A stretch of 64,000 nt of DNA, from contig CBDCCI010000002.1 of assembly GCA_965214705.1 (NCBI GenBank), positions 1,376,001-1,440,000 of the forward strand. The letters are read 5' to 3'. Under the pieces are notes generated by a model. It did not search any database and was not told where the DNA came from. It saw only the letters and a program-made list of their open reading frames with translations. Position numbers and translations under genes: made by a program. This document shows positions 648 to 55,145 of the stretch, one piece after another (the stretch's first letter is position 1; each line of letters opens with the position of its first letter). Source of the stretch: Alphaproteobacteria bacterium. GTDB lineage: Bacteria > Pseudomonadota > Alphaproteobacteria > UBA828.

Positions 648-2807
648 CCCAAGTTGGCACTTTTGTCCTACCCATGTCCTTTATCGTGTTGATGTAACGC
701 GATATTTCTCTCGGCCGGTTCCAACATGGCACTACATTTTGTTGGATTCTGTCAGTTCGGCAGGCGGGTCCTCGTGCGGTAGATGGCGGGTTCCACGCCC
801 GCCGCCGAGGAGATTGCGGCAACCTCAGCGGCCGGGCGCGTGTCCTGTCGATTGACGATCAAGGTGCCGTCGGTCTGGCGCAGGCGCGTGGTGATCCGCA
901 CCCAGGTCCGCATGCTCTCGCGGATCGATGCCCAGCACTTGTGGATGTCCCGCGCGGCCAGCCGGGAACGGATCAGATGCACGGCGTGGTAGGCCAGCAC
1001 GGCGATCAGCAGGTGGGCCGCGATGCGCCGGTCGAGCTGGTGCCAGATCGGGCGAAGGCCGAGTTCGGATTTCAGGCTTCGGAATGTCGCCTCGATATCC
1101 GTGATCCGCCAGTACGTCCGCAGGACCGTCTCGATATCCCAGTCGACGTGGCTGGTGCGCAGCACATAGGCGCCCGCGCCCTCATCGGCCTCGTCGTATC
1201 GCGGCCTGCGCTTGAAGCGCACGGCGGTGGCATTGGGGCCGGTGTCCGCCTTCTCGACCGTGATCTCGTAGTGCCTGGCGACGGCGGAGAAGCGCTGCTT
1301 GAGGCGGCCTATGCTCTCCAGCACCTTGTCGTAGCGCTTGAGGCGGCCCTTGACCGCAAGGCCGCCGTGGAGCCTTTGCAGCGCCGCCTCGAAGCGGTTC
1401 CGCCTCAGGCCGATGATCGCGTTCTCGGCCTTCTTCTTGCCCTCGCTGACGACGTAGAGCCGCGCCTCGCCGTCCTCGCTGGCAAGCCGCCAGGCCCGCA
1501 CCTCGTGGCGCGCGCTGGTGATCAGCAGGGCCTCGGGTCCGCCCTCGGGCGGCGCAGGCCTGGCACCGCGGCTGACCGCGATCCAGTCGTAGCCCTGCTC
1601 GCCCAGCCAGACGATGTTCTCCTCGGTGGCGATGCCCGCGTCCATGACCACCGTGGGCTTCGCCGCCGTGCCGCCGCATACCGCCTCGAGCCGGGCCAGC
1701 GCCTCGTGCAGCGTGCCCGGCTCGCTCACGTTGCCGGGCAGGATCTCGCAACTGCGCGGGAAGCCCGCACCGTCGAGCGCCAGCGCCAGCGTGATGAGGG
1801 GACAGTCGTCGCGCTTCTGCTTGGAGCGCCCGAACCTGGGAAGCTCGCCGTCGGTGTGGCCGTGGTAGTGGACGTTGGTGAGATCGTAGAAGGCGATCGT
1901 CTCGGGCAGGTCGAGCAGCGCGCGCTCACGGTTGAACAGTTCCCTCTGGATGGCGGCCCGGTGGCGCCAGAGCAGGTCGCCGATGCGGTAGAGCGTCTTG
2001 CGCCGCAGCGCCTTGCGGTCGCCCTCCAGGCCCAGGAGCTCGGCGGCCGCGCTGTCGTGGCGGAGCCAGCGGCTGGTATCACGCTCGCTGGCGGGATGGA
2101 CCATCCTGGCGACGATCAGCGCGCTGGCGATGCGTCCGTCGCGGCCCTTGATGTCGAGGCCGTGGAGGATTTCGGCGAAGCCAAGGTCGTCGAGGGCCTT
2201 GAGGCACAGGCGCTCGCAGCCGACGGTGCGCGGGTTCTCATGCTCCAGGGTATCGAGGTCGACGGTGGCGATCTCGGGCTTGCGCGCCTCTTCCTGCATC
2301 GCCTCGGCACGGAACCCCCTGGCCCTGAGCTTGGCGACGATGTCCTCGGCTGCGGCCTGCACGTCCGGGACGGCTTGGAGCAGCGGCGGGCGGCCGTGCA
2401 GCAGCGCCTCGGCGAGTTCGGCCACTTCGCGCCATTTCTCCTTCGGCACCGGATAGTCGGTGCCGAGGTTGAGGAGCGTGCGCTGCCTGACCTTGTCGCC
2501 GATGCGCTGGGAGAGCACGAGGCGATGGCTTCGGACGGGCTTGCCGTCGGTGGTGTGGGTCTTGGTTGCCCTGATGAACATGTCGCCCGTCGCGAGATTG
2601 TTGCGAGGGGCCAAGATTTGTCGGCTTGGGGTCTGGGGTCAAGGGAAAATCGTCAATACCTAACAACTCCTGGCACTACAACGCGCTTCCAGCGCCTCAA
2701 TTACACATATAGTGGCATCATCTCGGAGCTACCCCAATATGTGGTACTTCGGTCCGCAAAATATGGGCAGACCGGCATTGAGCAACCGGAAAAAGTGCCA
2801 ACTTGGG
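648..2807 (-). mobile_element. IS1634-family insertion sequence, copy 1
   Basis: TIRs CCCAAGTTGGCACTTTT (from 648) and AAAAGTGCCAACTTGGG (to 2807). TTAC is duplicated at 644-647 and 2808-2811. Confidence 0.9.
752..2581 (-). CDS. IS1634-family DDE transposase
   Basis: MFIR start, FYDLTN, FGRSKQKRDDCPL, VVMDAGIA and IEATFRSLKSELGLRPIWH motifs. Confidence 0.92.
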   Translation of the reverse strand: MFIRATKTHTTDGKPVRSHRLVLSQRIGDKVRQRTLLNLGTDYPVPKEKWREVAELAEALLHGRPPLLQAVPDVQAAAEDIVAKLRARGFRAEAMQEEARKPEIATVDLDTLEHENPRTVGCERLCLKALDDLGFAEILHGLDIKGRDGRIASALIVARMVHPASERDTSRWLRHDSAAAELLGLEGDRKALRRKTLYRIGDLLWRHRAAIQRELFNRERALLDLPETIAFYDLTNVHYHGHTDGELPRFGRSKQKRDDCPLITLALALDGAGFPRSCEILPGNVSEPGTLHEALARLEAVCGGTAAKPTVVMDAGIATEENIVWLGEQGYDWIAVSRGARPAPPEGGPEALLITSARHEVRAWRLASEDGEARLYVVSEGKKKAENAIIGLRRNRFEAALQRLHGGLAVKGRLKRYDKVLESIGRLKQRFSAVARHYEITVEKADTGPNATAVRFKRRPRYDEADEGAGAYVLRTSHVDWDIETVLRTYWRITDIEATFRSLKSELGLRPIWHQLDRRIAAHLLIAVLAYHAVHLIRSRLAARDIHKCWASIRESMRTWVRITTRLRQTDGTLIVNRQDTRPAAEVAAISSAAGVEPAIYRTRTRLPN

Positions 2808-6301: not shown

Positions 6302-6845
6302 GTAGGGTCGGGGGCTGACGCGCCAGCGTTAGGGGCTGGTGGCTGTTCCGGTGCTTTCGCGCCGGGCCGCAGTCCGACTCCCGTGACCGTGTTTCCAGTC
6401 CACCGCTCATCAAACCGGACGTGCGGTTTTCCCGCATCCGGCTTTCAGACGAGATCATGCCATCGCCCTCGGAAGGCCCATGGACTGCCGCGTCAGACGG
6501 ACGAGCACGTATTCGCCGTATAGCCTCTGGTCCGGGAAGCGCACGTGTTTCCCGCGCTGCGTCTGATGCTTTCGACAGAGCCATTGGCGATCTAGCCGCC
6601 TACCAGCGTGTCGGTTGATCGTGCTGTAGGCCGGGGCTGGCCTGCCCCAGGCTGAAGTAGTTGGCCCACCCGATCATGGTGCGGTTCAGACGGTCCGCCA
6701 TTTCCTCGGGCGACCGTCCGCCGTACCCACCCGCTTCCATATCGCTGATCTTGCGGCATATGCTTCGGACGCTGGCCTTGCCGGGCCGGGGCCGACGTAT
6801 GCTCCCGTCCCTTGGGGTCGATAGTTGCGCCCAATGCGGTATCTT
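6302..6845 (-). pseudogene. 3' remnant of a group II intron (degenerate maturase/domain X plus RNA domains V and VI)
   Basis: Minus strand has RLNRTMIGWANYFSLG, D5 GAAAGCCGGATGCGGGAAAACCGCACGTCCGGTTTGATGAGCGG, and a long D6 ending CGACCCTAC at 6302. Confidence 0.85.
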
Positions 6846-7133
6846 AGGAACTCACCATCACCCTAAAGATGATCCCGATCATGATCACCGTCGCTGCGGG
6901 AGCCGCCACCTCCGACAACTCGTTGTGTTGGTGTCGCTTATTCGATAGCCGCTCCACCAGCCCCACACGCAGCCCAACACCGGAACTCGGAACGTGGCGG
7001 ATCTTGAGGGTTGGCTTGCTACAGAATTCGGGCACTGCCGTCGCGTATGAAACGGTGACCTTGCTTCTCCGGTTTAGCTTGAACATGCGAGCGCCCCGGG
7101 TCGGAGCCTCACGGCCTCGAGCGCCGGTGGCGA

Positions 7134-40820: not shown

Positions 40821-41291
40821 CTATTGCGGCGTCATCTCCGCACGAACGCCCTGCCCCACCATTATGTCGATGCACCGCTCGCGCAGTTGCTCATAGATGT
40901 GCGGATGCACTTCTTCAGGATATTGCGCCACGATCCCCTCAAGCACCTTGCGCGTCTCCTCGATTATCTCCCGCCCAGCGGCGCGATACGCGATGAGCGT
41001 CCCGTCGGGATCGAAGTTATCCCAGAGGCTGTCCTGGGAGATGTACTCGCGGAGGCAAGGCGTGATGACCTTGGCCTCCATCTCGGTCTCGTCCGGTGCG
41101 ACGCGATACTTGTGCACGGAGCCGAGAGGCTCCATCTCGGCCAGCTCGCAGCCACGCTCGCAGAGCCTGACCGCGATGGGGTCATCGTATCCGAGACACT
41201 CGGACTTGCAATCCGCCAGAGCGGGTCCGATGAACATGGCCAGAGCCAAAATCCCGGCCACAGCCATCCCGAAGTACGGGATTGTCCGCAT
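40821..41291 (-). CDS. Hypothetical secreted protein (moron-like)
   Basis: Signal-peptide-like N-terminus (MRTIPYFGMAVAGILALAMFIGPALA) and a Cys-containing mature part. Confidence 0.65.
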   Translation of the reverse strand: MRTIPYFGMAVAGILALAMFIGPALADCKSECLGYDDPIAVRLCERGCELAEMEPLGSVHKYRVAPDETEMEAKVITPCLREYISQDSLWDNFDPDGTLIAYRAAGREIIEETRKVLEGIVAQYPEEVHPHIYEQLRERCIDIMVGQGVRAEMTPQ

Positions 41292-41300
41292 TGACGACAT

Positions 41301-41931
41301 CTATCCCCTCCCCATCTCGGCCAGACACGCTTGGCGGTCAGCCTCCATATCGGCCTCGCGTTGCGCCGCCGCGCTCGCCCCGTCTTCCTTGAACTCCTCC
41401 CAAGGGAACCACGAGGCCACGTCCGGGCGCTTGCCGGTGACCTTGAGCTCGAAGAAAACACCGATTTTCGCGAGCGTCAAACGGATGTCGCTGAGCAACA
41501 CCGGATCGGGCGGCACCCGATCGAAGTGCCGCTCCCAAAGCTCTACCTCATGGGGATTATCGAGGAAGTGCTGGAGCGGCTGCCCCGTCTCCCTTGATGC
41601 TAGGTAGGGCCGTCGCCGACGGCTTCGTCTACCTCCGCCGCCTTGTCGATGACGCCGGCGGCGTCGGCAGGATCGCCGCCCTCGCCGTCCTCGGTCATGT
41701 CGATCAGCTTGTCCAGCTTGCAGAGCTTGAGCGCGGCGTTCACGACGAGGGGGAGTCGCTCGAACTTCTCCGGCTCTTCGCGCGATTTGCCGAGCAGCCG
41801 ATCCCAGGCGTCCTCGTCCATGTCGTCGTGCCCTACGACGGTGATGACGAGGGCATTGCAGATGATCCGCTCGAGATCGACGGCCAGCCGCGCGCCGAGA
41901 TCGGATTCGTCCTCGCCCTTCTGCTTCTTGA
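41301..41931 (-). pseudogene. Probable phage tail assembly chaperone pair (G/GT-like), 5' end cut by IS1634
   Basis: An acidic ORF ending ...VGDGPT* (41600) overlaps a -1 frame ORF lacking its own start (...LWERHFDRVPPD...MGRG*), upstream of the tape-measure-like gene. Confidence 0.5.
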
Positions 41932-41943
41932 CCCAAGTTGGCA

Positions 41944-42836
41944 GTGCGCCGTGGAAAGGCGCTCTCTTTCAGCGGGTGCGAATCCCGCCCAACAACTGTC
42001 GCTCCGGTTGGTAGCAGCCAGGGCGGTTCATGGAGGTGACGACATGGGCTGAAGCACCTTGGTGGAAAAGGGCCACCGTTGGGTGGCTCAGCGACCGTGC
42101 GGGCCGGAACGTGAGTGAACGCTGAGCAGGCCTCGAAACGGGTAATGCGAGTGTCGACCCTCCTGCCAAAAGGGGAAGACCGTCGCCGATCGGGAAGAGA
42201 GCGACATGCGCACCGATCGCGGCTCGCCGGGGTAGTGGCGCCGGCACGCACGGAAGAGGAAGAGAGCAGCAACACGGGAAGCCCTGACGGTGGTGCGCGC
42301 ACATCAACCGGAAGCCCGCGAGGGACAGGCCGGGCCGTCAGGGTGGCGGAGAGGCCCGTAAGACTGAGGACGCCGGGTAATGCCGGCCGAGGAAAGGGGC
42401 CTCAGGTGTGGAGGGGTGCCTTGAAGGGAGAAGGGCCAGGGAGTGGCTAAGCCTGTAACCCCGAGAATGGCCGGAGATCCCGGCGGCATCACATGCAAAT
42501 GGAAGCGAAGGGGCCGCCCGGAGCAAATCTGCGCGGTACCGCCGGGGCATCGACAGGCCCGGCGGTCAAGGCGGACGACGAATGGACCGCGATGGTTGAG
42601 GGGATGCGCACCCTTGCGACCGGATCGGAGGTTCCGATCACGTGCGCCATCGTCGCGAGCTTTGCCTGTGTGCGAGATGCATGATCCCACTGGAGAGCTC
42701 GGTGCTCGAAATGGGCACGCCGGGTTCGGAGAGCGGGGACCGGAAACGCGGCCAAGGGAGCCGGATTGAGGCCCGCAGCGAAAGCGGCGGAATTGCCACC
42801 GGACCCTACAGCAGGCGCGCCAGTCCTCGACTCTAC
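41944..42836 (+). ncRNA. ORF-less group II intron (IIB-like, 893 nt)
   Basis: 5' GTGCG, D5 GAGAGCTCGGTGCTCGAAATGGGCACGCCGGGTTCGGAGAGCGG, a long D6 ending CTCGACTCTAC, and EBS1 TGCCAA (42164-42169). D4 holds only degenerate IEP ends. Confidence 0.9.
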
Positions 42837-42928
42837 CTTTTCCGCTGTCTGTGTTCCCTATTGGTTTGATTCAACGCGATATTTTTCTCGGTCGATTCCA
42901 ACATGGCCCCACATTTTGTGAGATTCTG

Positions 42929-44740
42929 TCAGCTCATCAGACGGGTCCTCGTGCGGTGGATGGCGGGGTCCACGCCCGCCGCCGAGGAGATTGCGGCAAC
43001 CTCGGCGGCCGGGCGCGTGTCCTGGCGGTTGACGATCAAGGTGCCGTCGGTCTGGCGCAGGCGCGTGGTGATCCGCACCCAGGTCCGCATGCTCTCGCGG
43101 ATCGATGCCCAGCACTTGTGGATGTCCCGCGCGGCCAGCCGGGTACGGATCAGATGCACGGCGTGGTAGGCCAGCACGGCGATCAGCAGGTGGGCCGCGA
43201 TGCGCCGGTCGAGCTGGTGCCAGATCGGGCGAAGGCCGAGTTCGGATTTCAGGCTTCGGAATGTCGCCTCGATATCCGTGATCCGCCAGTACGTCCGCAG
43301 GACCGTCTCGATATCCCAGTCGACGTGGCTGGTGCGCAGCACATAGGCGCCCGCGCCCTCATCGGCCTCGTCGTATCGCGGCCTGCGCTTGAAGCGCACG
43401 GCGGTGGCATTGGGGCCGGTGTCCGCCTTCTCGACCGTGATCTCGTAGTGCCTGGCGACGGCGGAGAAGCGCTGCTTGAGGCGGCCTATGCTCTCCAGCA
43501 CCTTGTCGTAGCGCTTGAGGCGGCCCTTGACCGCAAGGCCGCCGTGGAGCCTTTGCAGCGCCGCCTCGAAGCGGTTCCGCCTCAGGCCGATGATCGCGTT
43601 CTCGGCCTTCTTCTTGCCCTCGCTGACGACGTAGAGCCGCGCCTCGCCGTCCTCGCTGGCAAGCCGCCAGGCCCGCACCTCGTGGCGCGCGCTGGTGATC
43701 AGCAGCGCCTCGGGCCCGCCCTCCGGCAGCGGCGGCCTGGCGCCGCGGCTGACCGCGATCCAGTCGTAGCCCTGCTCGCCCAGCCAGACGATGTTCTCCT
43801 CGGTGGCGATGCCCGCGTCCATGACCACCGTGGGCTTCGGCGCCGTGCCGCCGCACACCGCCTTGAGCCGGGCCAGCGCCTCGTGCAGCGTGCCCGGCTC
43901 GCTCACGTTGCCGGGCAGGATCTCGCAACTGCGCGGGAAGCCCGCGCCGTCGAGCGCCAGCGCCAGCGTGATGAGGGGACAGTCGTCGCGCTTCTGCTTG
44001 GAGCGCCCGAACCTGGGAAGCTCGCCGTCGGTGTGGCCGTGGTAGTGGACGTTGGTGAGATCGTAGAAGGCGATCGTCTCGGGCAGGTCGAGCAGCGCGC
44101 GCTCACGGTTGAACAGTTCCCTCTGGATGGCGGCCCGGTGGCGCCAGAGCAGGTCGCCGATGCGATAGAGCGTCTTGCGCCGCAGCGCCTTGCGGTCGCC
44201 CTCCAGGCCCAGGAGCTCGGCGGCCGCGCTGTCGTGGCGGAGCCAGCGGCTGGTATCACGCTCGCTGGCGGGATGGACCATCCTGGCGACGATCAGCGCG
44301 CTGGCGATGCGTCCGTCGCGGCCCTTGATGTCGAGGCCGTGGAGGATTTCGGCGAAGCCAAGGTCGTCGAGGGCCTTGAGGCACAGGCGCTCGCAGCCGA
44401 CGGTGCGCGGGTTCTCATGCTCCAGGGTATCGAGGTCGACGGTGGCGATCTCGGGCTTGCGCGCCTCTTCCTGCATCGCCTCGGCACGGAACCCCCTGGC
44501 CCTGAGCTTGGCGACGATGTCCTCGGCTGCGGCCTGCACGTCCGGGACGGCTTGGAGCAGCGGCGGGCGGCCGTGCAGCAGCGCCTCGGCGAGTTCGGCC
44601 ACTTCGCGCCATTTCTCCTTCGGCACCGGATAGTCGGTACCGAGATTGAGCAGCGTCCTGTGGCGCACCTTGTCGCCGACGCGCTGGGCGAGCACGAGGC
44701 GATGGCTTCGGACCGGCTGGCCGTCCTTGTCGGTGTGCAC
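42929..44740 (-). pseudogene. IS1634 transposase, N-terminally truncated
   Basis: Near-identical to the copy 1 transposase but lacks the first residues (MFIR...). Confidence 0.8.
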
Positions 44741-45043
44741 CTACTTTAGCGAATATTTGGCGAGCGCACCGTGACGCAGGGTTGCAATTTTCTCCTGTAT
44801 GTTGGTTATGATACAGTGGGTTATGGTTGGCGTCAAGAACGGTTGGGCCGGGCCTGGAGAACACATGGGCTGATCTTGTGTCACTGAGTAGTTGCATTCG
44901 GGGAAACAGGTAGTGGAGTTTTTCGTGGAGCGCTGGTATGGTCGTGGCATCCATTGTGGCTCGCTATGTAGGGACACAATAGAGACATAGGATTATGTCT
45001 GCGACGAATACCATAGGAATATCGTCACACATTCTACGTCATT

Positions 45044-45700
45044 ATGCAGCTGCGTGTCGCTGTCTCCACAGGCCTTGCCGGACGGATGGCCGCGATTAGG
45101 GAGGAGGCCGGCGGACGCCGCCAGCGCGCGGTGATGGCCACCGATACGGAGTGGGAAGGGATCGGCCGGGCGGCTGCGGCGAGCGGCATGGACCTGTCGC
45201 GCTTCGTGATCCATCGCGCGCTGGACCGGGACCTCTGCCGCCGGAGGTTCTGCGCCGGGCGGTCCGCGAGATGCTGGTGATGTCGAGGCTGGAGGAGAGG
45301 CGGCTGCGCGGGGCCGGCGAGGCCTGGGAGGACGCCTGCGACGCGGTGGACGAATGGATCGAGCGGGAGGGCACGCTGGACCGGCTCACCGATCCCGGCG
45401 CGGCGAACCGCTGGAAGGCGGCGGGGCCGGCCGAGGAGGACGGGTCGTGACGGAGGAGGCGGTGCGGGCCCGTCAGGCGTGGGCCCGTCAGGCGTCAGCG
45501 GAGCCTGCACTGCAAGCCGGCGAAGCAGCAGGCGATGATCCGGGAGCGCGCGGCGGCGGCGGAGAAGACCGTGTCGCGCTATGTTCTGGAGCTTGCGCTC
45601 GCCGACGATCCGGACCGCAATCCTCTGGTGCTGACGGAAGCGGAACAGGTTGAGCAGCGGGACGGGGTGCGATCGCCACGTACAGCGTGTCATGCTCCGC
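45044..45700 (+). pseudogene. Two frameshifted MobC-like ribbon-helix-helix genes
   Basis: ATDTEWEGIGRAAAASGMDLSRFVIHRAL and AMIRERAAAAEKTVSRYVLELAL. Frames are broken and the region ends at IS21. Confidence 0.55.
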
Positions 45701-46049
45701 CCTGATCGGCGCGGCCGTCTCATTTGTGCGGATTCCGGTTCATTTGACCGCCGGTTCTGATTCTATCTGACCGGGGTTCTGATTTTATTTGACCGGGGTT
45801 CTGGCAACACTTGACCGTGCTGCGGGCGCGCGCCAGCGCGCTGTCTCTCCCGGATTTGGCGGTGTGACCCTCCCCTTGGTGATGTCGGGGGGCTGGCCTC
45901 TGGCCAGCCCGAGCCGAGCGTATGCGAGGCCTCTTGGGCATGCAAACGGCCGGCGGGGCGCGGCGGCAAGCTCTCACACACAGCATGCCGCCGCGCACCT
46001 CCGCCCTCGCAGCCTGGAAGGCGCCGCAGGCGCCCATGGACCCCGGCCT

Positions 46050-46826
46050 TCAGGCCGGGGCTCTGTTGCCGTTGCCGCCGCCGTCGAGTGGCGGGGGCTT
46101 GTTGCGCTTGCGCTGGGACTCTCCCTTGAGCTCGATGCGATAGGCGTTGTGGACGATGCGGTCGAGGACCGCATCCGCGATCGTTAGCTCTCCGATCACC
46201 TCGGGCCAGCCGTCTACGGGGATCTGGCTGGCGATCAGGATGGACTTGCGTCCGTGGCGCGCCTCCACGATCTCCAGCAGGTCGCGCCGGCCCTCGGCGG
46301 AGAAGCCCTGCAGCCCCCAGTCGTCGAGGACCAGCAGGGAGACCCTGCCCAGGCGGCCCATCAGGCGCTCGAGCGTGCCTTTGTCGCGGGCGCGGGTCAG
46401 GGCAGCGACCAGTTCGGGCACGCGGCGATAGAGGACGGACTGGTGCTGGCGGCAGGCCTGGTGGGCGAGCGCGCAAGCGACGAACGTCTTTCCCGACCCG
46501 GTTGGCCCACCCAGGATCAGATTGTGGCCTTGGCGGATCCAGTCGCCGGCGGCGAGCTGGGTGAGCGTGGTCCGGGCGATGCCGCGCCCCGCGCGGCAGT
46601 CGACGTCCTGGACGTCGGCGCGGATGCGCAGCTGGGCCTGGCGCAGATGGCCGAGATAGCTTTTGTGATCGCGGTGCTCGGCCTCGCGCTCGATCATCAG
46701 GGCGAGGCGGTCGTCGAAGCCGAGCTGGTCGACGTCGGCGATGTCGCGCTGCTCCTCCAGGGCCTCGGCCATGCCGCTGAGGCCGAGCTGCAGCAGGCGG
46801 TCGATATTGGGTTGTCGCAGGGTCAT
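46050..46826 (-). CDS. istB: IS21 helper ATPase IstB
   Basis: GPTGSGKT, LVLDDWG, ADAVLDRIVHNAYRIELKGESQR. Confidence 0.95.
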   Translation of the reverse strand: MTLRQPNIDRLLQLGLSGMAEALEEQRDIADVDQLGFDDRLALMIEREAEHRDHKSYLGHLRQAQLRIRADVQDVDCRAGRGIARTTLTQLAAGDWIRQGHNLILGGPTGSGKTFVACALAHQACRQHQSVLYRRVPELVAALTRARDKGTLERLMGRLGRVSLLVLDDWGLQGFSAEGRRDLLEIVEARHGRKSILIASQIPVDGWPEVIGELTIADAVLDRIVHNAYRIELKGESQRKRNKPPPLDGGGNGNRAPA

Positions 46827-49824: not shown

Positions 49825-51920
49825 CCCATCTTTGCCACTTTTCGGTCCCGAAGGCCTGATTTTGGGTAGCCTTTGGGATCTAAGGCACTGATTTTGTTGG
49901 ATTGTGTTTTGGGAAGTCCATTGTAGTGCCATAATCTTTGGTCTGTGGGCCGGCGCTCCTTGACAGTCCGCAAACTGTCCGTGACCCTGCCGCCATGTTC
50001 ATTCGCAAAACCCTCACCGGTCGCGGAGACGGTGGCGAGCGCTATGCCACCTACCGCCTCGTGCGCAGCGAACGCATCGGCGGAAGGGTGCGCCAGGTCA
50101 CGCTCCTCAATCTCGGCGCCGACTTCGGTGTGCCCGAGGAGCAATGGCGCGAATTGGCGCTTCTGATCGAAACCCTTCTCGCCGGCAGCGAGCCGCTGCT
50201 GGAGCCGGATGCCGCCTTGCGCCCCGTCGCCGAGGACGTCGTACGGCGGCTTCACGCCCGCGATCTCGGCGCGTCGCGGCCCGGGGACGAGAGCGACCTG
50301 GCCACGGTCCGTCTCGATAGCCTCTCCCACGAACAGGTCCGCTCGGTGGGCTGCGAGCGCCTGGCTCTCGCCGCGCTTGACGACCTTCGCTTCATCGAGA
50401 CGCTGGAGAGGCTGGGCGCAAGTGAGCGCGACGCACGCATCGCGGCGGCACTGGTGGTCGCGCGCATGATCCATCCCTCCAGCGAGCGCGAGGCCTTCCG
50501 CTGGCTGAGCGCGAACAGCGCGACCCTGGAGTTGCTCGATGTCGACAGCGGCAAGTCGCTCACGCTCAGCAAGCTCTACCGCATCGGCGACCTCTTGTGG
50601 CGTCACCGCGCGGCGCTTGAAGAGGCGCTGTGCGCCCGGGAGCGCGATCTCTTCGGCATCCCCGACACCATCGTCTTCTTCGACCTGACCAACACCCATA
50701 TGACCGGACGGCCCAGCTCCGCGCTGGCCCGCTTCGGGCGCTCGAAGCAGAGGCGTGACGATTGTCCGATCGTGACCCTGGCCCTGTCGCTGAACCAGGC
50801 CGGCTTTCCGCAGCACAGCGAGATCCTGCCCGGCAACATCTCCGAGCCGGCCACTCTCGCCGACGCCATCGGGCGGCTGGAATGCCAAGCGCGCGGCAGC
50901 AACGCCCCCAGGCCCACGGTCATCATGGACGCCGGCATCTCCACCGAGGCCAACCTCGCCTGGCTGCGGGCGGGCGGCTATCACTGGATCACCGTTCGCC
51001 GCGGCGTCTCGGCGCCGCCCGGGCGCGAAGCCGATGCCGCCTTCGAAACCCGGGCCGGCCACGATGCCCGCGCCTGGCGTCTCGCGGCAGGGGACGACGA
51101 AGCGCACCTGTGCGTCTGGAGCCATGAGCGCCAGCAGAAGGACGAGGCCGTGCTCGCCCGTCAGCGTCACAACTTCGAGGACGCCCTGCGCGCCCTGCAT
51201 GGCGGGCTGTCGAAGAAGAACCACATCAAGCAGTTCACCAAGGTGATGGAGAAGCTGGGCCGGCTGAAGGAAAGGTACAGGCGCGTCCACCGTCAGTACG
51301 ACATCGAGGTCGAGCCCGGAGAGAAGGGGCGGGCCAGTGCGGTCCGCTGGAGGCGCAACGCTCTCCATGCCGAGCGCGACCGCCAAGCGGGCATCTATGT
51401 GCTGCGCACCAGCCACGTCGAGTGGGATCTTGAAACCGTGGTCCGAACCTACTGGAAGCTCACAGAGCTCGAGGCCACCTTCCGCAGCCTGAAATCCGAA
51501 ATCGGCCTGCGCCCGGTCTGGCACTCCAAGACCTCGCGCATCGCCGCCCACCTGTTCATCGCCGTCCTCGCCTACCACGCGGTTCATCTGCTGCGAACCC
51601 GTCTGGCGGCGCACGGCTTGCATGACCGCTGGAGTACGATCCGCGACAAGCTCGCGGGCTGGGTGCGTCTCACCTCCACCATCCGGGAGGTGGACGGAAA
51701 CCGCATCGTCATCCGCCAGGATGCTCAACCCGACGCCGAGGCGCGCGTCATCGCGCAGGCGGCGGGCCTCACGGTGGATCCCCACAGGCGCCGGGCGGTG
51801 CTCCCGGGAGTGTCGCGATGAGCGCACAAACGTAGTGCCATAATCCCAGATGGGCCAGAAAATCAGCCCATCATCGCAACTACTTAGGTCGCAGGCGCGC
51901 GCCAAAATGGCAAAGATGGG
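49825..51920 (+). mobile_element. IS1634-family element type B, copy 1 (2096 bp)
   Basis: TIR CCCATCTTTGCCA/TGGCAAAGATGGG. TSD AGAA at 49821-49824 and 51921-51924. Confidence 0.92.
49995..51821 (+). CDS. IS1634-family transposase
   Basis: MFIRKT, FFDLTN, FGRSKQRRDDCP, VIMDAGIS and LEATFRSLKSEIGLRPVWH. Confidence 0.92.
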   Translation: MFIRKTLTGRGDGGERYATYRLVRSERIGGRVRQVTLLNLGADFGVPEEQWRELALLIETLLAGSEPLLEPDAALRPVAEDVVRRLHARDLGASRPGDESDLATVRLDSLSHEQVRSVGCERLALAALDDLRFIETLERLGASERDARIAAALVVARMIHPSSEREAFRWLSANSATLELLDVDSGKSLTLSKLYRIGDLLWRHRAALEEALCARERDLFGIPDTIVFFDLTNTHMTGRPSSALARFGRSKQRRDDCPIVTLALSLNQAGFPQHSEILPGNISEPATLADAIGRLECQARGSNAPRPTVIMDAGISTEANLAWLRAGGYHWITVRRGVSAPPGREADAAFETRAGHDARAWRLAAGDDEAHLCVWSHERQQKDEAVLARQRHNFEDALRALHGGLSKKNHIKQFTKVMEKLGRLKERYRRVHRQYDIEVEPGEKGRASAVRWRRNALHAERDRQAGIYVLRTSHVEWDLETVVRTYWKLTELEATFRSLKSEIGLRPVWHSKTSRIAAHLFIAVLAYHAVHLLRTRLAAHGLHDRWSTIRDKLAGWVRLTSTIREVDGNRIVIRQDAQPDAEARVIAQAAGLTVDPHRRRAVLPGVSR

Positions 51921-53049: not shown

Positions 53050-55145
53050 CCCATCTTTGCCACTTTTCGGTCCCGAAGGCCTGATTTTGGGTAGCCTTTG
53101 GGATCTAAGGCACTGATTTTGTTGGATTGTGTTTTGGGAAGTCCATTGTAGTGCCATAATCTTTGGTCTGTGGGCCGGCGCTCCTTGACAGTCCGCAAAC
53201 TGTCCGTGACCCTGCCGCCATGTTCATTCGCAAAACCCTCACCGGTCGCGGAGACGGTGGCGAGCGCTATGCCACCTACCGCCTCGTGCGCAGCGAACGC
53301 ATCGGCGGAAGGGTGCGCCAGGTCACGCTCCTCAATCTCGGCGCCGACTTCGGTGTGCCCGAGGAGCAATGGCGCGAATTGGCGCTTCTGATCGAAACCC
53401 TTCTCGCCGGCAGCGAGCCGCTGCTGGAGCCGGATGCCGCCTTGCGCCCCGTCGCCGAGGACGTCGTACGGCGGCTTCACGCCCGCGATCTCGGCGCGTC
53501 GCGGCCCGGGGACGAGAGCGACCTGGCCACGGTCCGTCTCGATAGCCTCTCCCACGAACAGGTCCGCTCGGTGGGCTGCGAGCGCCTGGCTCTCGCCGCG
53601 CTTGACGACCTTCGCTTCATCGAGACGCTGGAGAGGCTGGGCGCAAGTGAGCGCGACGCACGCATCGCGGCGGCACTGGTGGTCGCGCGCATGATCCATC
53701 CCTCCAGCGAGCGCGAGGCCTTCCGCTGGCTGAGCGCGAACAGCGCGACCCTGGAGTTGCTCGATGTCGACAGCGGCAAGTCGCTCACGCTCAGCAAGCT
53801 CTACCGCATCGGCGACCTCTTGTGGCGTCACCGCGCGGCGCTTGAAGAGGCGCTGTGCGCCCGGGAGCGCGATCTCTTCGGCATCCCCGACACCATCGTC
53901 TTCTTCGACCTGACCAACACCCATATGACCGGACGGCCCAGCTCCGCGCTGGCCCGCTTCGGGCGCTCGAAGCAGAGGCGTGACGATTGTCCGATCGTGA
54001 CCCTGGCCCTGTCGCTGAACCAGGCCGGCTTTCCGCAGCACAGCGAGATCCTGCCCGGCAACATCTCCGAGCCGGCCACTCTCGCCGACGCCATCGGGCG
54101 GCTGGAATGCCAAGCGCGCGGCAGCAACGCCCCCAGGCCCACGGTCATCATGGACGCCGGCATCTCCACCGAGGCCAACCTCGCCTGGCTGCGGGCGGGC
54201 GGCTATCACTGGATCACCGTTCGCCGCGGCGTCTCGGCGCCGCCCGGGCGCGAAGCCGATGCCGCCTTCGAAACCCGGGCCGGCCACGATGCCCGCGCCT
54301 GGCGTCTCGCGGCAGGGGACGACGAAGCGCACCTGTGCGTCTGGAGCCATGAGCGCCAGCAGAAGGACGAGGCCGTGCTCGCCCGTCAGCGTCACAACTT
54401 CGAGGACGCCCTGCGCGCCCTGCATGGCGGGCTGTCGAAGAAGAACCACATCAAGCAGTTCACCAAGGTGATGGAGAAGCTGGGCCGGCTGAAGGAAAGG
54501 TACAGGCGCGTCCACCGTCAGTACGACATCGAGGTCGAGCCCGGAGAGAAGGGGCGGGCCAGTGCGGTCCGCTGGAGGCGCAACGCTCTCCATGCCGAGC
54601 GCGACCGCCAAGCGGGCATCTATGTGCTGCGCACCAGCCACGTCGAGTGGGATCTTGAAACCGTGGTCCGAACCTACTGGAAGCTCACAGAGCTCGAGGC
54701 CACCTTCCGCAGCCTGAAATCCGAAATCGGCCTGCGCCCGGTCTGGCACTCCAAGACCTCGCGCATCGCCGCCCACCTGTTCATCGCCGTCCTCGCCTAC
54801 CACGCGGTTCATCTGCTGCGAACCCGTCTGGCGGCGCACGGCTTGCATGACCGCTGGAGTACGATCCGCGACAAGCTCGCGGGCTGGGTGCGTCTCACCT
54901 CCACCATCCGGGAGGTGGACGGAAACCGCATCGTCATCCGCCAGGATGCTCAACCCGACGCCGAGGCGCGCGTCATCGCGCAGGCGGCGGGCCTCACGGT
55001 GGATCCCCACAGGCGCCGGGCGGTGCTCCCGGGAGTGTCGCGATGAGCGCACAAACGTAGTGCCATAATCCCAGATGGGCCAGAAAATCAGCCCATCATC
55101 GCAACTACTTAGGTCGCAGGCGCGCGCCAAAATGGCAAAGATGGG
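53050..55145 (+). mobile_element. IS1634-family element type B, copy 2 (appears identical to 49825-51920)
   Basis: Same TIRs, same length and identical translated protein. Flanks TGAA and TGGA do not match exactly. Confidence 0.92.
53220..55046 (+). CDS. IS1634-family transposase
   Basis: Identical translation to 49995-51821. Confidence 0.92.
   Translation: MFIRKTLTGRGDGGERYATYRLVRSERIGGRVRQVTLLNLGADFGVPEEQWRELALLIETLLAGSEPLLEPDAALRPVAEDVVRRLHARDLGASRPGDESDLATVRLDSLSHEQVRSVGCERLALAALDDLRFIETLERLGASERDARIAAALVVARMIHPSSEREAFRWLSANSATLELLDVDSGKSLTLSKLYRIGDLLWRHRAALEEALCARERDLFGIPDTIVFFDLTNTHMTGRPSSALARFGRSKQRRDDCPIVTLALSLNQAGFPQHSEILPGNISEPATLADAIGRLECQARGSNAPRPTVIMDAGISTEANLAWLRAGGYHWITVRRGVSAPPGREADAAFETRAGHDARAWRLAAGDDEAHLCVWSHERQQKDEAVLARQRHNFEDALRALHGGLSKKNHIKQFTKVMEKLGRLKERYRRVHRQYDIEVEPGEKGRASAVRWRRNALHAERDRQAGIYVLRTSHVEWDLETVVRTYWKLTELEATFRSLKSEIGLRPVWHSKTSRIAAHLFIAVLAYHAVHLLRTRLAAHGLHDRWSTIRDKLAGWVRLTSTIREVDGNRIVIRQDAQPDAEARVIAQAAGLTVDPHRRRAVLPGVSR

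What the first reader, a model, noticed from the sequence alone, without database searches (positions are those of the whole stretch)
41932..42845. ORF-less group II intron whose guide sequences read an IS1634 terminal inverted repeat
Seen: the intron sits between nt 12 and 13 of the TIR (CCCAAGTTGGCA|CTTTTCC). A loop TGCCAA (42164-42169, EBS1 position) is the exact complement of the last 6 exon bases TTGGCA. A second hairpin GCCAC-CGTTGG-GTGGC contains TTGGGT (42079-42084), complementary to ACCCAA upstream (IBS2). The intron is antisense to the transposase and lacks an RT. Inference: a non-autonomous retroelement specialised on a transposon end, a target present twice per IS and spread by the IS itself. 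Insertion probably immobilises the IS. Introns in IS genes and next to attC or terminator hairpins are known, but I do not know of TIR targeting for this family.
Basis: partly seen in the sequence, partly recalled or inferred. Interest (0 to 1): 0.78.

Follow-up and report, generated by a model that had tools for sequence, protein, structure and literature searches.

The report
ORF-less intron inside a transposon end
A self-splicing group II intron that has lost its own reverse transcriptase sits 12 bases inside the terminal repeat of a jumping gene and reads that repeat by base pairing; the behaviour is real, but a similar case (RmInt2 in ISRm17) is already published.

Summary
Window 41944-42836 (+) is an 893-nt group II intron without an RT gene. 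It lies between nt 12 and 13 of the 17-bp terminal inverted repeat (TIR) of an IS1634-family insertion sequence. All 6 copies in this genome (3 full, 3 cut at the 3' side) and the 1 copy in a sister species follow the same 12-nt tip. The 3 full copies lie in 3 different IS ends, so they arose by separate homing events.

EBS1 (42164-42169) is correct and covaries with the 5' exon across relatives. The real EBS2 is C-GGGT at 42139-42143, and EBS3 is G42235, pairing with TIR nt 13.

RT-encoding relatives hit the tips of a second IS1634 element, an IS1380 element and a MITE-like repeat, 11-17 nt from the tip (most often 12-13).

TIR targeting is not new. RmInt2 of Sinorhizobium meliloti homes into both inverted repeats of ISRm17 (PMC4615759). 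New here are the loss of the ORF, an intron lineage whose IEPs lack the class D motif, and the tip-reading habit across the clade.

The trans-acting RT, present activity and IS immobilisation are inferred, not shown.

The parts
41931..41934 (+). IBS2: ACCC, one flanking base (A) plus TIR nt 1-3
   Evidence: Pairs with GGGT of EBS2 (4 bp). In the sister-species copy the tip reads CCCGAG and all 5 nt of CGGGT pair. Position -13 is A in 5 of 6 occupied sites and in 77 of 117 free sites.
41932..41943 (+). Outer 12 nt of the IS terminal inverted repeat (5' exon side)
   Evidence: The same 12-mer ends 117 uninterrupted IS ends in the genome and the intact IS at window 648-2807.
41938..41943 (+). IBS1: TTGGCA, TIR nt 7-12
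   Evidence: Complement of the EBS1 loop, 6 of 6 bp.
41944..42836 (+). ORF-less group II intron, 893 nt
   Evidence: GTGCG...CTCTAC; Rfam RF02003 and RF00029. Two further full copies and 3 truncated copies in the genome. No RT remnant.
42071..42088 (+).
   Evidence: The stem is kept through compensatory changes (pair 132-148: GC in 15 sequences, AU in 5). The loop does not follow the exon: best-6 score 4.77 against a shuffled mean of 4.80, and 1443 of 2000 shuffles reach the observed value.
42139..42143 (+). EBS2: C-GGGT, in an internal loop of domain I
   Evidence: Across 26 distinct guide pairs this 5-mer pairs with exon -14..-10 at 3.08 of 5, against a shuffled mean of 2.07; 0 of 2000 shuffles reach the observed value. 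Neighbouring registers are not enriched. The region is unpaired in the RNAalifold consensus.
42164..42169 (+). EBS1: TGCCAA, in a terminal loop
   Evidence: Mean 5.65 of 6 pairs with exon -6..-1 over 26 guide pairs, against a shuffled mean of 2.99; 0 of 2000 shuffles reach the observed value. It lies in the terminal loop of helix 223-226/237-240 of alignment A1.
42235..42235 (+). EBS3: G, intron nt 292
   Evidence: This column is Watson-Crick to the first 3'-exon base in 28 of 31 relatives (29 counting G-U). The next best column reaches 18 of 31. It is unpaired between two helices.
42693..42836 (+). Domains V and VI
   Evidence: RF00029 aligns over model positions 1-77 of 77 at 36.9 bits, below the gathering score of 40. 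The AGC triad and both domain V helices are kept through compensatory changes relative to RT-encoding relatives.
42837..42837 (+). IBS3: C, TIR nt 13
   Evidence: Pairs with G42235. All 3 full copies in this genome have C here.
42837..44737 (+). Rest of the invaded IS (IS nt 13-1913 of 2160); the far end and second TIR are missing
   Evidence: BLAST to intact IS copies: 96.5-97.6% identity. No second TIR within 3 mismatches in the window.
42929..44740 (-). IS1634-family transposase ORF, 603 aa
   Evidence: NF033559 at 258.7 bits, cut-off 100. Pfam DDE_Tnp_1 at 30.5 bits.
648..2807 (-). Uninterrupted reference copy of the same IS, with 4-bp duplication TTAC
   Evidence: Transposase 752-2614 (-): NF033559 at 256.1 bits.

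Best explanation
The feature is a non-autonomous (ORF-less) group II intron of the IIB-like, endonuclease-less kind. It retrohomed into the terminal inverted repeat of an IS1634-family insertion sequence.

The excised intron RNA recognises the transposon tip by three pairings:
- EBS2 GGGT with ACCC (one flank base plus TIR nt 1-3).
- EBS1 TGCCAA with TTGGCA (TIR nt 7-12).
- EBS3 G with C (TIR nt 13).

The RNA reverse-splices between TIR nt 12 and 13 and is copied into DNA by a reverse transcriptase/maturase supplied in trans. Each IS carries the target at both ends, in opposite orientation, and the intron always reads from outside inward.

The insertion separates the outer 12 bp of the TIR from the inner part by 893 bp, and so most likely disables that IS end.

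Shown: the ribozyme identity, the site, the three guide pairings (by covariation), independent insertions into three different IS ends, and the same habit in relatives.

Inferred: retrohoming as the process, the source of the RT, present activity, and IS immobilisation.
For: Ribozyme. RF02003 at 80.2 bits. Domains V/VI aligned end to end, with compensatory changes that keep domain V paired. The domain I consensus fold on 24 relatives has 101 pairs, 44 of them with double changes.

Site. 6 of 6 copies in the genome and 1 of 1 in genome G012 follow CCC(A/G)AGTTGGCA. The three full copies have three different 3' exons: CTTTTCCGCTGTC, CTTTTTCCGACCGG and CTTTTGTCCTACC. These are different IS subtypes and both IS ends. 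All six have different upstream flanks.

Guides. EBS1, EBS2 and EBS3 covary with the exons.

Relatives do the same.
- A second IS1634-family element in this genome has TIR CCCGACTTCCGC|AACTCGG (NF033559 at 303.7 bits). It is hit at 12|13 by a relative whose EBS1 is GCGGAA and whose EBS3 is T.
- In G013, an IS1380-family IS has intron copies facing inward at both ends, and a 21-copy repeat tip CCCGGATTTCTC is hit at 12|13.
- Among 40 non-tandem sites of RT-encoding relatives from other genomes, 6 have the inverted partner tip downstream. The upstream control gives 1.

RT in trans. G000:C2:25403-26836 is a complete RT/maturase frame (TIGR04416 at 335.5 bits, cut-off 300; RVT_1 plus GIIM). It is 80% identical to the IEP of the nearest full-length relative. 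The ORF-less intron keeps nt 1 to about 504, which is 80% alike to relatives and includes the start of domain IV.

Recent spread. Two full copies are 100% identical and the third is 99.6%.

Precedent for the mechanism. RmInt2 retrohomes into both inverted repeats of ISRm17 in plasmid assays (PMC4615759).
Against: No intact autonomous member of this lineage is left in the genome. All RT-encoding relatives are split by a 3.4-kb element at intron nt 562-565. The C2 frame therefore starts inside foreign sequence and has no ATG before the RT motifs.

EBS2 pairing is only 4 bp here. It sits one position off the clade's commonest register, where only 3 of 5 positions pair.

RF00029 scores below its gathering score.

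Three of the six copies are cut at the 3' side, which reverse transcription does not produce; they need later deletions.

No RNA evidence for transcription, splicing or lariats was obtained.

The link between occupied ends and broken IS copies could mean that old dead copies collect introns, rather than that introns kill IS copies.
Confidence: 0.8

Rival explanations
1. Fossil. The intron homed into the TIRs in the past, when an autonomous relative was intact. It is now immobile and decaying, and nothing in this genome can move it.
For: All RT-encoding relatives in the genome are interrupted. Three of six copies are truncated. All six host IS copies are themselves broken. RF00029 scores below its gathering score.
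Against: Two full copies are 100% identical and the third is 99.6%. Domain V keeps its pairing through compensatory changes. A complete RT/maturase frame of the right lineage exists on C2.
Confidence: 0.3
2. Hitch-hiking. One ancestral insertion was multiplied by transposition or segmental duplication of the intron-bearing IS, not by repeated homing.
For: The outer 12 bp of the TIR remain at the end of the composite element. Upstream flanks differ between copies, as after transposition.
Against: The three full copies continue into three different IS sequences, and into both ends of the IS. A relative with a different EBS1 sits at the same 12|13 position of a different IS. No two copies share an IS body.
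Confidence: 0.05
3. One reading: EBS2 is the loop TTGGGT of the hairpin at 42071-42088, pairing with ACCCAA.
For: There are 6 complementary bases in this one sequence.
Against: Three of the six bases lie in a helix that is kept by compensatory changes. Relatives with unrelated exons carry the same CTTGGG or CATGGG loop. There is no covariation with the exon: 1443 of 2000 shuffles do as well.
Confidence: 0.03
4. Homing is coupled to transposition. The endonuclease-less RNP uses free 3' ends at the IS tip in transposition intermediates as primer, which would explain the fixed 11-13 nt distance from the tip.
For: The distance from the tip is 11-13 nt in most TIR cases, across IS1634, IS1380 and MITE-like targets. 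The IEPs carry no endonuclease domain.
Against: The guide also pairs with a flank base outside the IS. CT at -17/-16 is found at 6 of 6 occupied sites against 65 of 117 free sites, which points to integrated IS copies as targets. The fixed distance follows more simply from a conserved EBS2 (GGGY) reading a CCC tip. The 3' end at the tip lies on the wrong side of the insertion site to prime cDNA synthesis (reasoning, not tested).
Confidence: 0.05

Closest known systems
RmInt2 of Sinorhizobium meliloti GR4, homing into the inverted repeats of ISRm17 (Martinez-Rodriguez et al. 2014, PMC4615759; passages and section 6 read)
   Same: [quoted passage not shown] In both, EBS1, a 5-nt EBS2 with a linker, and EBS3 give the specificity, and pairing of 4 of the 5 EBS2 positions is tolerated. 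Head-to-tail copies occur in both: here in G012 and in 6 of 52 site contexts of relatives. Flank bases just outside the pairing matter in both: C-16/T-15 for RmInt2, CT at -17/-16 here.
   Different: RmInt2 encodes its own IEP and is class D. The present element has no ORF. The IEPs of its nearest relatives lack the class D C-terminal motif LX3AX3PXLF[V/A]HW. blastn of the intron against 72,556 plasmid records matched only 4 Sinorhizobium records. The target is an IS1634-family TIR; I did not determine the family of ISRm17. The exact offset of RmInt2 from the IS tip is in supplementary figures that I could not open.
RmInt1 in ISRm2011-2 (class D; review PMC5894124, passages read)
   Same: An endonuclease-less intron that lives in an abundant IS and is said to block the spread of that IS.
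   Different: RmInt1 inserts inside the IS transposase gene, not in the TIR, so it has one target per IS. It is autonomous.
Bacterial ORF-less group II introns that depend on a related IEP in trans (Zimmerly and Semper 2015 review, PMC4424553, passages read; the primary survey, Simon et al. 2008, is not held)
   Same: These are rare ORF-less introns found in genomes that also hold related RT-encoding introns. The same holds here.
   Different: The passages I read mention no ORF-less intron in an IS end. Here the ORF-less form shows three independent insertions, so it was mobile after losing the ORF, or it lost the ORF once and then spread.
Class C group II introns at terminators and attC sites (PMC4424553, passage read)
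   Same: Endonuclease-less introns aimed at a recurrent structural DNA motif of another mobile or regulatory element.
   Different: Class C introns lack EBS2 and read a hairpin. The present intron reads a linear 13-nt sequence with EBS1, EBS2 and EBS3.

Membership tests
Group II intron (ribozyme) | Domain I architecture | tested here: met
   RF02003 at 80.2 bits, gathering score 49. Consensus fold of 24 relatives: 101 pairs, 44 with double changes.
Group II intron (ribozyme) | 5' GUGYG and 3' AY ends; domain V with AGC triad and bulge; domain VI | tested here: met
   GTGCG...CTCTAC. RF00029 aligned over all 77 model positions, but at 36.9 bits, under the gathering score of 40. Domain V pairing is kept by compensatory changes.
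Group II intron (ribozyme) | EBS1-IBS1, EBS2-IBS2 and EBS3-IBS3 pairings with the flanking exons | tested here: met
   EBS1 6 of 6; EBS2 4 of 5 (5 of 5 in G012); EBS3 G-C. All three covary across relatives.
Group II intron (ribozyme) | Self-splicing or protein-assisted splicing | not testable with these tools
   No RNA reads were laid. RNA runs held only 0.05-0.06 of the sampled words.
Mobile (autonomous) group II intron | Intron-encoded RT/maturase in domain IV | tested here: not met
   blastx against all genome frames of 100 aa or more finds no RT. Only about the first 40 codons' worth of similarity is left, up to about nt 504.
Bacterial class D introns (RmInt1/RmInt2 group) | C-terminal IEP motif LX3AX3PXLF[V/A]HW (as given in PMC4615759) | tested here: not met
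   The motif matches 0 frames among the ORFs of loci L037-L048 and 0 among 38,449 frames of G000. It could be tested only on relatives' IEPs, because the element itself has none.
Bacterial class D introns (RmInt1/RmInt2 group) | IEP without DNA-binding/endonuclease domain | tested here: met
   Pfam finds only RVT_1 and GIIM. GIIM ends at residue 454 of 484 and at 451 of 478.
IS-inverted-repeat-homing introns (as RmInt2) | All natural copies lie inside the inverted repeats of one IS, at both ends | tested here: met
   6 of 6 copies; both IS ends are used.
IS-inverted-repeat-homing introns (as RmInt2) | Retrohoming into a cloned inverted repeat | not testable with these tools
   This is a bench assay.
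IS1634 family (the target) | Transposase matches the family model | tested here: met
   NF033559 at 256.1 and 258.7 bits, cut-off 100.
IS1634 family (the target) | Terminal inverted repeats and target duplication | tested here: met
   17 bp are identical at both ends. 4-bp duplications TTAC, TTTC and TATC. From memory, IS1634 itself makes long variable duplications, so this element differs from the type member in that respect.
ORF-less introns mobilised in trans | A related IEP gene in the same genome | tested here: met
   G000:C2:25403-26836: TIGR04416 at 335.5 bits, 80% identical to the IEP of the nearest full-length relative.
ORF-less introns mobilised in trans | That IEP is expressed and acts on the ORF-less RNA | not testable with these tools
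   The frame begins inside an inserted element and has no ATG upstream of the RT motifs.

The most novel reading that the evidence does not exclude
A widespread clade of endonuclease-less group II introns is specialised as a parasite of DDE-transposon ends. Its IEPs are 71-85% identical, and it is found in MAGs labelled Alphaproteobacteria, Longimicrobiales, Binatia and others.

In this reading a conserved EBS2 (GGGY) is anchored on the CCC tip and the last flank base. EBS1 and EBS3 are retuned to TIR positions 7-13 of whichever IS (IS1634, IS1380, MITE-like) is abundant in the host. Each insertion splits and disables one IS end.

The 893-nt element is then a hyperparasite: an intron that lives on the RT of its relatives, and those relatives live on transposons. 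The net effect would be a natural brake on IS expansion.
Probability: 0.35. Interest if true: 0.65.

Novelty: new variant of a known kind. Interest (0 to 1): 0.45.

Why it matters
It adds a second, independent intron lineage to the single studied case (RmInt2) of a retroelement that aims at transposon ends, and its IEPs lack the class D signature.

The habit survives loss of the intron's own RT. It also recurs with retuned guides on at least four kinds of transposon tip.

If insertion really disables the IS end, such introns are a layer of control among mobile elements in genomes crowded with IS copies. This genome has 123 such IS ends and 57 RT matches.

The mapped EBS1, EBS2 and EBS3 and the short ribozyme also give a compact natural ORF-deleted scaffold whose targeting rules can be tested directly.

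Tried and rejected
Dead ends and weak results:
- The repeat finder on 41000-46500 did not find the TIR, because the intron splits it and the far IS end is missing. The typed-pattern search found it.
- blastx and tblastn for an RT remnant in intron nt 459-771 gave nothing beyond about nt 504. The origin of nt 505-713 stays unexplained.
- Tips of four relatives were searched in their own genomes. Those of G004, G047 and G005 occur once each, so TIR status there is untested. Only G013's tip is repeated: 21 times, control 0.
- Strand bias relative to replication: cumulative GC skew is too weak and noisy in all three contigs. 5 of 6 copies agree with the local G-rich strand, which proves nothing.
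- Sequencing runs: only Logan contigs were available, and they break at the repeats. Contigs of X1 and X5 carry the unique flank joined to the tip and the first 17 nt of the intron with 0 differences. X7 carries the flank of the C2:673884 copy joined to at least 431 nt of intron, where G000 keeps 106. There is no evidence on RNA, splicing or empty sites. In X5 and X7 an intron 3' end is followed by another sequence that is absent from G000; I did not follow this up.
- Class assignment: I could not place the lineage in class E, F or another class. Passages of PMC3552965 and PMC3753933 give no usable test. A tblastn hit on a S. meliloti pSymB record (H45, 32% identity) was fetched to stand in for RmInt1. 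It lacks the class D motif and reads through into hutI, so it was dropped.
- blastn against plasmids: 76 records, best about 72% identity over nt 1-462, none covering 80% of the query.

What I could not see:
- PMC2525955 (the ORF-less intron survey) is not held.
- Supplements are closed, so Fig. S1/S2 of PMC4615759, which show where in the ISRm17 repeat RmInt2 sits, were not seen.

Literature: searches of the held library turned up no paper on an ORF-less intron in an IS end or on IS1634 TIR targeting. That covers the held library only.

Counts and dropped rows:
- One search found 65 intron copies with both ends among 79 loci, in 52 distinct contexts. Loci whose 3' end did not align to the last 5 nt of the probe were left out.
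- One search used 40 sites, after dropping tandem junctions and merging arrays.
- started from 53 distinct 5' exons. 15 were dropped because a regex anchor failed (L012 among them). The remaining 38 collapsed to 26 distinct guide pairs.
- One search used 31 distinct domain I/+1 combinations. Introns longer than 2100 nt and tandem junctions were left out.
Full report
WHAT IS THERE. Window 41944-42836 (+) begins GTGCG and ends CTCTAC. Rfam's domain I model RF02003 (group-II-D1D4-4) matches 41970-42114 at 80.2 bits against a gathering score of 49, and it is the only gathering-level RNA match in the window. The domain V/VI model RF00029 aligns over its whole length at 42693-42836 but scores 36.9 bits, below its gathering score of 40. 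RT-encoding relatives score 42-46 bits with the same model.

An alignment of the last 150 nt with 14 relatives shows the AGC triad. Both helices of domain V are kept through compensatory changes: GCGG/CCGC becomes GCTC/GGGC. The element is 893 nt. blastx against all 38,449 stop-to-stop frames of 100 aa or more of the genome finds no reverse transcriptase. So it is a group II intron without an ORF.

THE HOST SITE. The flanks CCCAAGTTGGCA | CTTTTCC join into the end of an insertion sequence. An intact 2160-bp copy lies in the same window at 648-2807. It has CCCAAGTTGGCACTTTT at both ends and a 4-bp duplication TTAC. Its transposase, and the one next to the intron (42929-44740, minus strand), match the IS1634-family model NF033559 at 256 and 259 bits against a cut-off of 100.

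The genome (7.9 Mb, 3 contigs) holds the 12-nt tip 124 times. 117 tips run on into CTTTT, 6 run into the intron and 1 into something else.

ALL COPIES SHARE THE SITE, AND THEY ARE INDEPENDENT. BLAST of the intron against its own genome gives three full copies: C3:1417944-1418836 (the window copy), C3:2066433-2067325 and C1:1330418-1331309. They are 100%, 100% and 99.6% identical. Three further copies keep only nt 1-524, 1-179 and 1-106. All six are preceded by CCCAAGTTGGCA and by six different upstream sequences.

The three full copies continue into three different sequences: CTTTTCCGCTGTC, CTTTTTCCGACCGG and CTTTTGTCCTACC. These belong to different IS subtypes and to both ends of the IS. One insertion carried around by the IS cannot produce this pattern. 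At the C3:2066433 copy the intron is sense to the (truncated) transposase, and at the other two it is antisense. The constant feature is that the intron reads from outside the IS inward.

A 96%-identical ORF-less copy in a sister species (G012:C8:236078-236970) sits behind CCCGAGTTGGCA. It is followed directly by nt 1-37 of a second copy. That genome has 14 free tips. A third species (G005) has 15 free tips and no copy of this intron.

THE GUIDES. I aligned domain I of 11 relatives with different exons. I then aligned a wider set from a scan of 185,579 species' genomes with the IEP of the nearest full-length relative. That scan gave 463 confirmed relatives, 79 loci kept, 65 intron copies with both ends found, and 52 distinct contexts.

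- EBS1. The loop at window 42164-42169 pairs with exon -6..-1 at a mean of 5.65 of 6 over 26 distinct guide pairs. The shuffled mean is 2.99, and 0 of 2000 shuffles reach the observed value.
The hairpin at 42071-42088 is a conserved helix with compensatory changes. Its loop is CTTGGG or CATGGG in relatives whatever their exon. Its best complementarity to exon -16..-7 is 4.77, no better than shuffled at 4.80, and 1443 of 2000 shuffles do as well.
- The true EBS2 is the 5-mer after CGAAA, at window 42139-42143 (C-GGGT), in an internal loop 21 nt upstream of EBS1. Across the clade it pairs with exon -14..-10 at 3.08 of 5 against 2.07 shuffled; 0 of 2000 shuffles reach the observed value, and the four neighbouring registers are not enriched. 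Clear cases are CGCTC/GAGCG, CGTAT/ATACG and CGGGC/GCCCG.
- In the window copy the best pairing is GGGT with ACCC (-13..-10), one position off the modal register. In that modal register only 3 of 5 positions pair. In G012, whose tip reads CCCGAG, all five bases pair in the shifted register. I count EBS2 here as real but weak.
- EBS3. Intron nt 292 (G, window 42235) is Watson-Crick to the first 3'-exon base in 28 of 31 relatives, and the next best column reaches 18 of 31. It lies unpaired between two helices. It pairs with C42837, which is TIR nt 13.

The whole recognised sequence is therefore one flank base plus TIR nt 1-13.

RELATIVES DO THE SAME WITH OTHER TRANSPOSONS.
- In this genome a relative whose domain I is 82% identical (C3:604054-604468) follows CCCGACTTCCGC. 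Another relative's 3' end (C1:28191) runs into AACTCGGGGGTTATGAGG. Together these are the TIR of a second IS, C1:3382626-3384656 (2031 bp, NF033559 at 303.7 bits), again split at 12|13. That relative's EBS1 is GCGGAA and its EBS3 is T.
- In G013 a 1.6-kb IS1380-family element (NF033539 at 409 bits) has intron copies facing inward at both ends.
- Also in G013 the tip CCCGGATTTCTC occurs 21 times (control 0) and ends a 121-bp MITE-like element. It is occupied once, at 12|13.
- Among 40 non-tandem sites of the wider survey, 6 have the inverted partner of the tip 0.2-3.7 kb downstream (at least 15 of 18 matches), against 1 in the upstream control. The distance from tip to insertion site is 11-17 nt, mostly 12-13.
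- Tip-targeting members mostly carry EBS2 CGGGC or CGGGT, which reads the CCC tip and the last flank base.
- Other members sit in unrelated sites, with good EBS1 and poor EBS2 pairing. They look like ectopic insertions (for example L014).

WHERE THE RT COULD COME FROM. The nearest full-length relative (L037, 1983 nt, from G005) encodes an IEP with RVT_1 and GIIM only and no endonuclease domain. It matches TIGR04416 at 328.9 bits. The ORF-less intron matches it at 80% over nt 1-458, with weak protein-level similarity to about nt 504. It matches again from about nt 714-772 to the end, so the deletion removed nearly the whole ORF but kept the start of domain IV.

In the present genome every RT-encoding member of this lineage is damaged. 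A 3.4-kb element with duplication AAGG sits at intron nt 562-565 in all three, one is also hit by the IS itself, and the 5' ribozyme halves are missing.

One frame, C2:25403-26836, still holds a complete RT/maturase core. It scores 335.5 bits on TIGR04416 (cut-off 300) and is 80% identical to the L037 IEP. It is the best candidate helper, but its start lies in foreign sequence. The other roughly 40 group II RTs of the genome are at most about 35% identical.

EFFECT ON THE IS. None of the 6 occupied ends belongs to a structurally intact IS. The window copy lacks IS nt 1914-2160 and the second TIR. The C3:2066433 copy keeps 247 nt of IS. The C1 copy is complete but is split by a 3.2-kb insert, with its duplication TATC intact. 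The three truncated introns have no IS behind them. Of the 117 free tips, 100 have a partner tip at 2150-2165 bp. This fits immobilised copies that decay, but it would also fit old dead copies that collect introns. Causation is not shown.

CT at -17/-16 is present at 6 of 6 occupied ends against 65 of 117 free ends. This is reminiscent of C-16/T-15, which the RmInt2 protein requires, but it is only suggestive.

The 3'-truncated copies are later deletions. Contigs of run X7 join the flank of the C2:673884 copy to at least 431 nt of intron, where this genome keeps 106.

WHAT IS KNOWN. Martinez-Rodriguez et al. 2014 (PMC4615759; passages and section 6 read) report the following for RmInt2:
- All RmInt2 copies in S. 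meliloti GR4 lie in the inverted repeats of ISRm17.
- This gives two targets per IS on opposite strands.
- The intron retrohomes into the cloned repeat with a lagging-strand bias.
- Pairing of four of the five EBS2 positions suffices.
- Head-to-tail copies arise.
The review PMC5894124 repeats this. TIR targeting by a group II intron is therefore known and has been tested.

Zimmerly and Semper 2015 (PMC4424553, passages) state that bacterial ORF-less introns are rare and nearly always live beside related introns whose IEP may act in trans.

The differences here are:
- No ORF.
- The class D motif given in PMC4615759 is absent from relatives' IEPs.
- The target is an IS1634-family TIR.
- The same tip-reading habit recurs with retuned guides on several transposon families.
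I could not assign the lineage to a named class.

VERDICT. The EBS2 assignment and the novelty claim are wrong. I rate it a new variant of a known kind, with moderate interest.

Noticed in passing
window 6302-6854 (-): A 3' fragment (nt 1434-1983, 84.5% identical) of an RT-encoding relative of the intron, with a GIIM match at window 6636-6767. Its break point equals the point where the IS is inserted in the C1:24607-28191 copy.
   Followed up: partly
window 50055-51767 and 53280-54992: Two copies of a third IS, 68% identical to the IS1634-family element, lie 3.2 kb apart. About 25 copies occur genome-wide.
   Followed up: no
G000:C2:22202-25570, C1:21238-24606, C3:595843-601878: A 3.4-kb element with 4-bp duplication AAGG is inserted at the same position (intron nt 562-565) of all three RT-encoding relatives. 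The C3 copy is longer. I did not identify it.
   Followed up: partly
G000 whole genome: 57 RVT_1 and 43 GIIM matches from several group II intron families, many nested in each other. One 439-aa RT type is present about 16 times, and one of its copies sits inside the relative at C3:604054.
   Followed up: partly
L138:78-1515 and L084, L143, L144, L145: Head-to-tail arrays of relatives, including two 719-nt ORF-less copies in tandem in a MAG labelled Paracoccaceae. ORF loss and tandem homing therefore recur in the clade.
   Followed up: partly
L123, L126, L127, L132, L135, L141, L144 (MAGs labelled Longimicrobiales): A sub-lineage sits in the middle of short palindromes of the form TGTAAA...TTACA | ...TGTAA...TTTACA. 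These may be abutting repeat ends or hairpin repeats.
   Followed up: no
L043:482-9844 (G013:C2:2311481-2320843): One IS1380-family IS has intron copies at both ends facing inward. Each intron is itself interrupted at nt 161 by another group II intron (RF02005 at 166.7 bits).
   Followed up: partly
window 44738-45060: The invaded IS breaks off at IS nt 1913 and runs into an AT-richer repeat that also occurs at G000:C2:640184-640497 (91% identical) and, more distantly, at other places.
   Followed up: no
runs X5 and X7, at window 42837: In contigs of two other studies, an intron 3' end at least 90% alike is followed by GAC...GGCTCGACGATGCCGGCATC rather than by the TIR. That sequence is not in G000.
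   Followed up: no
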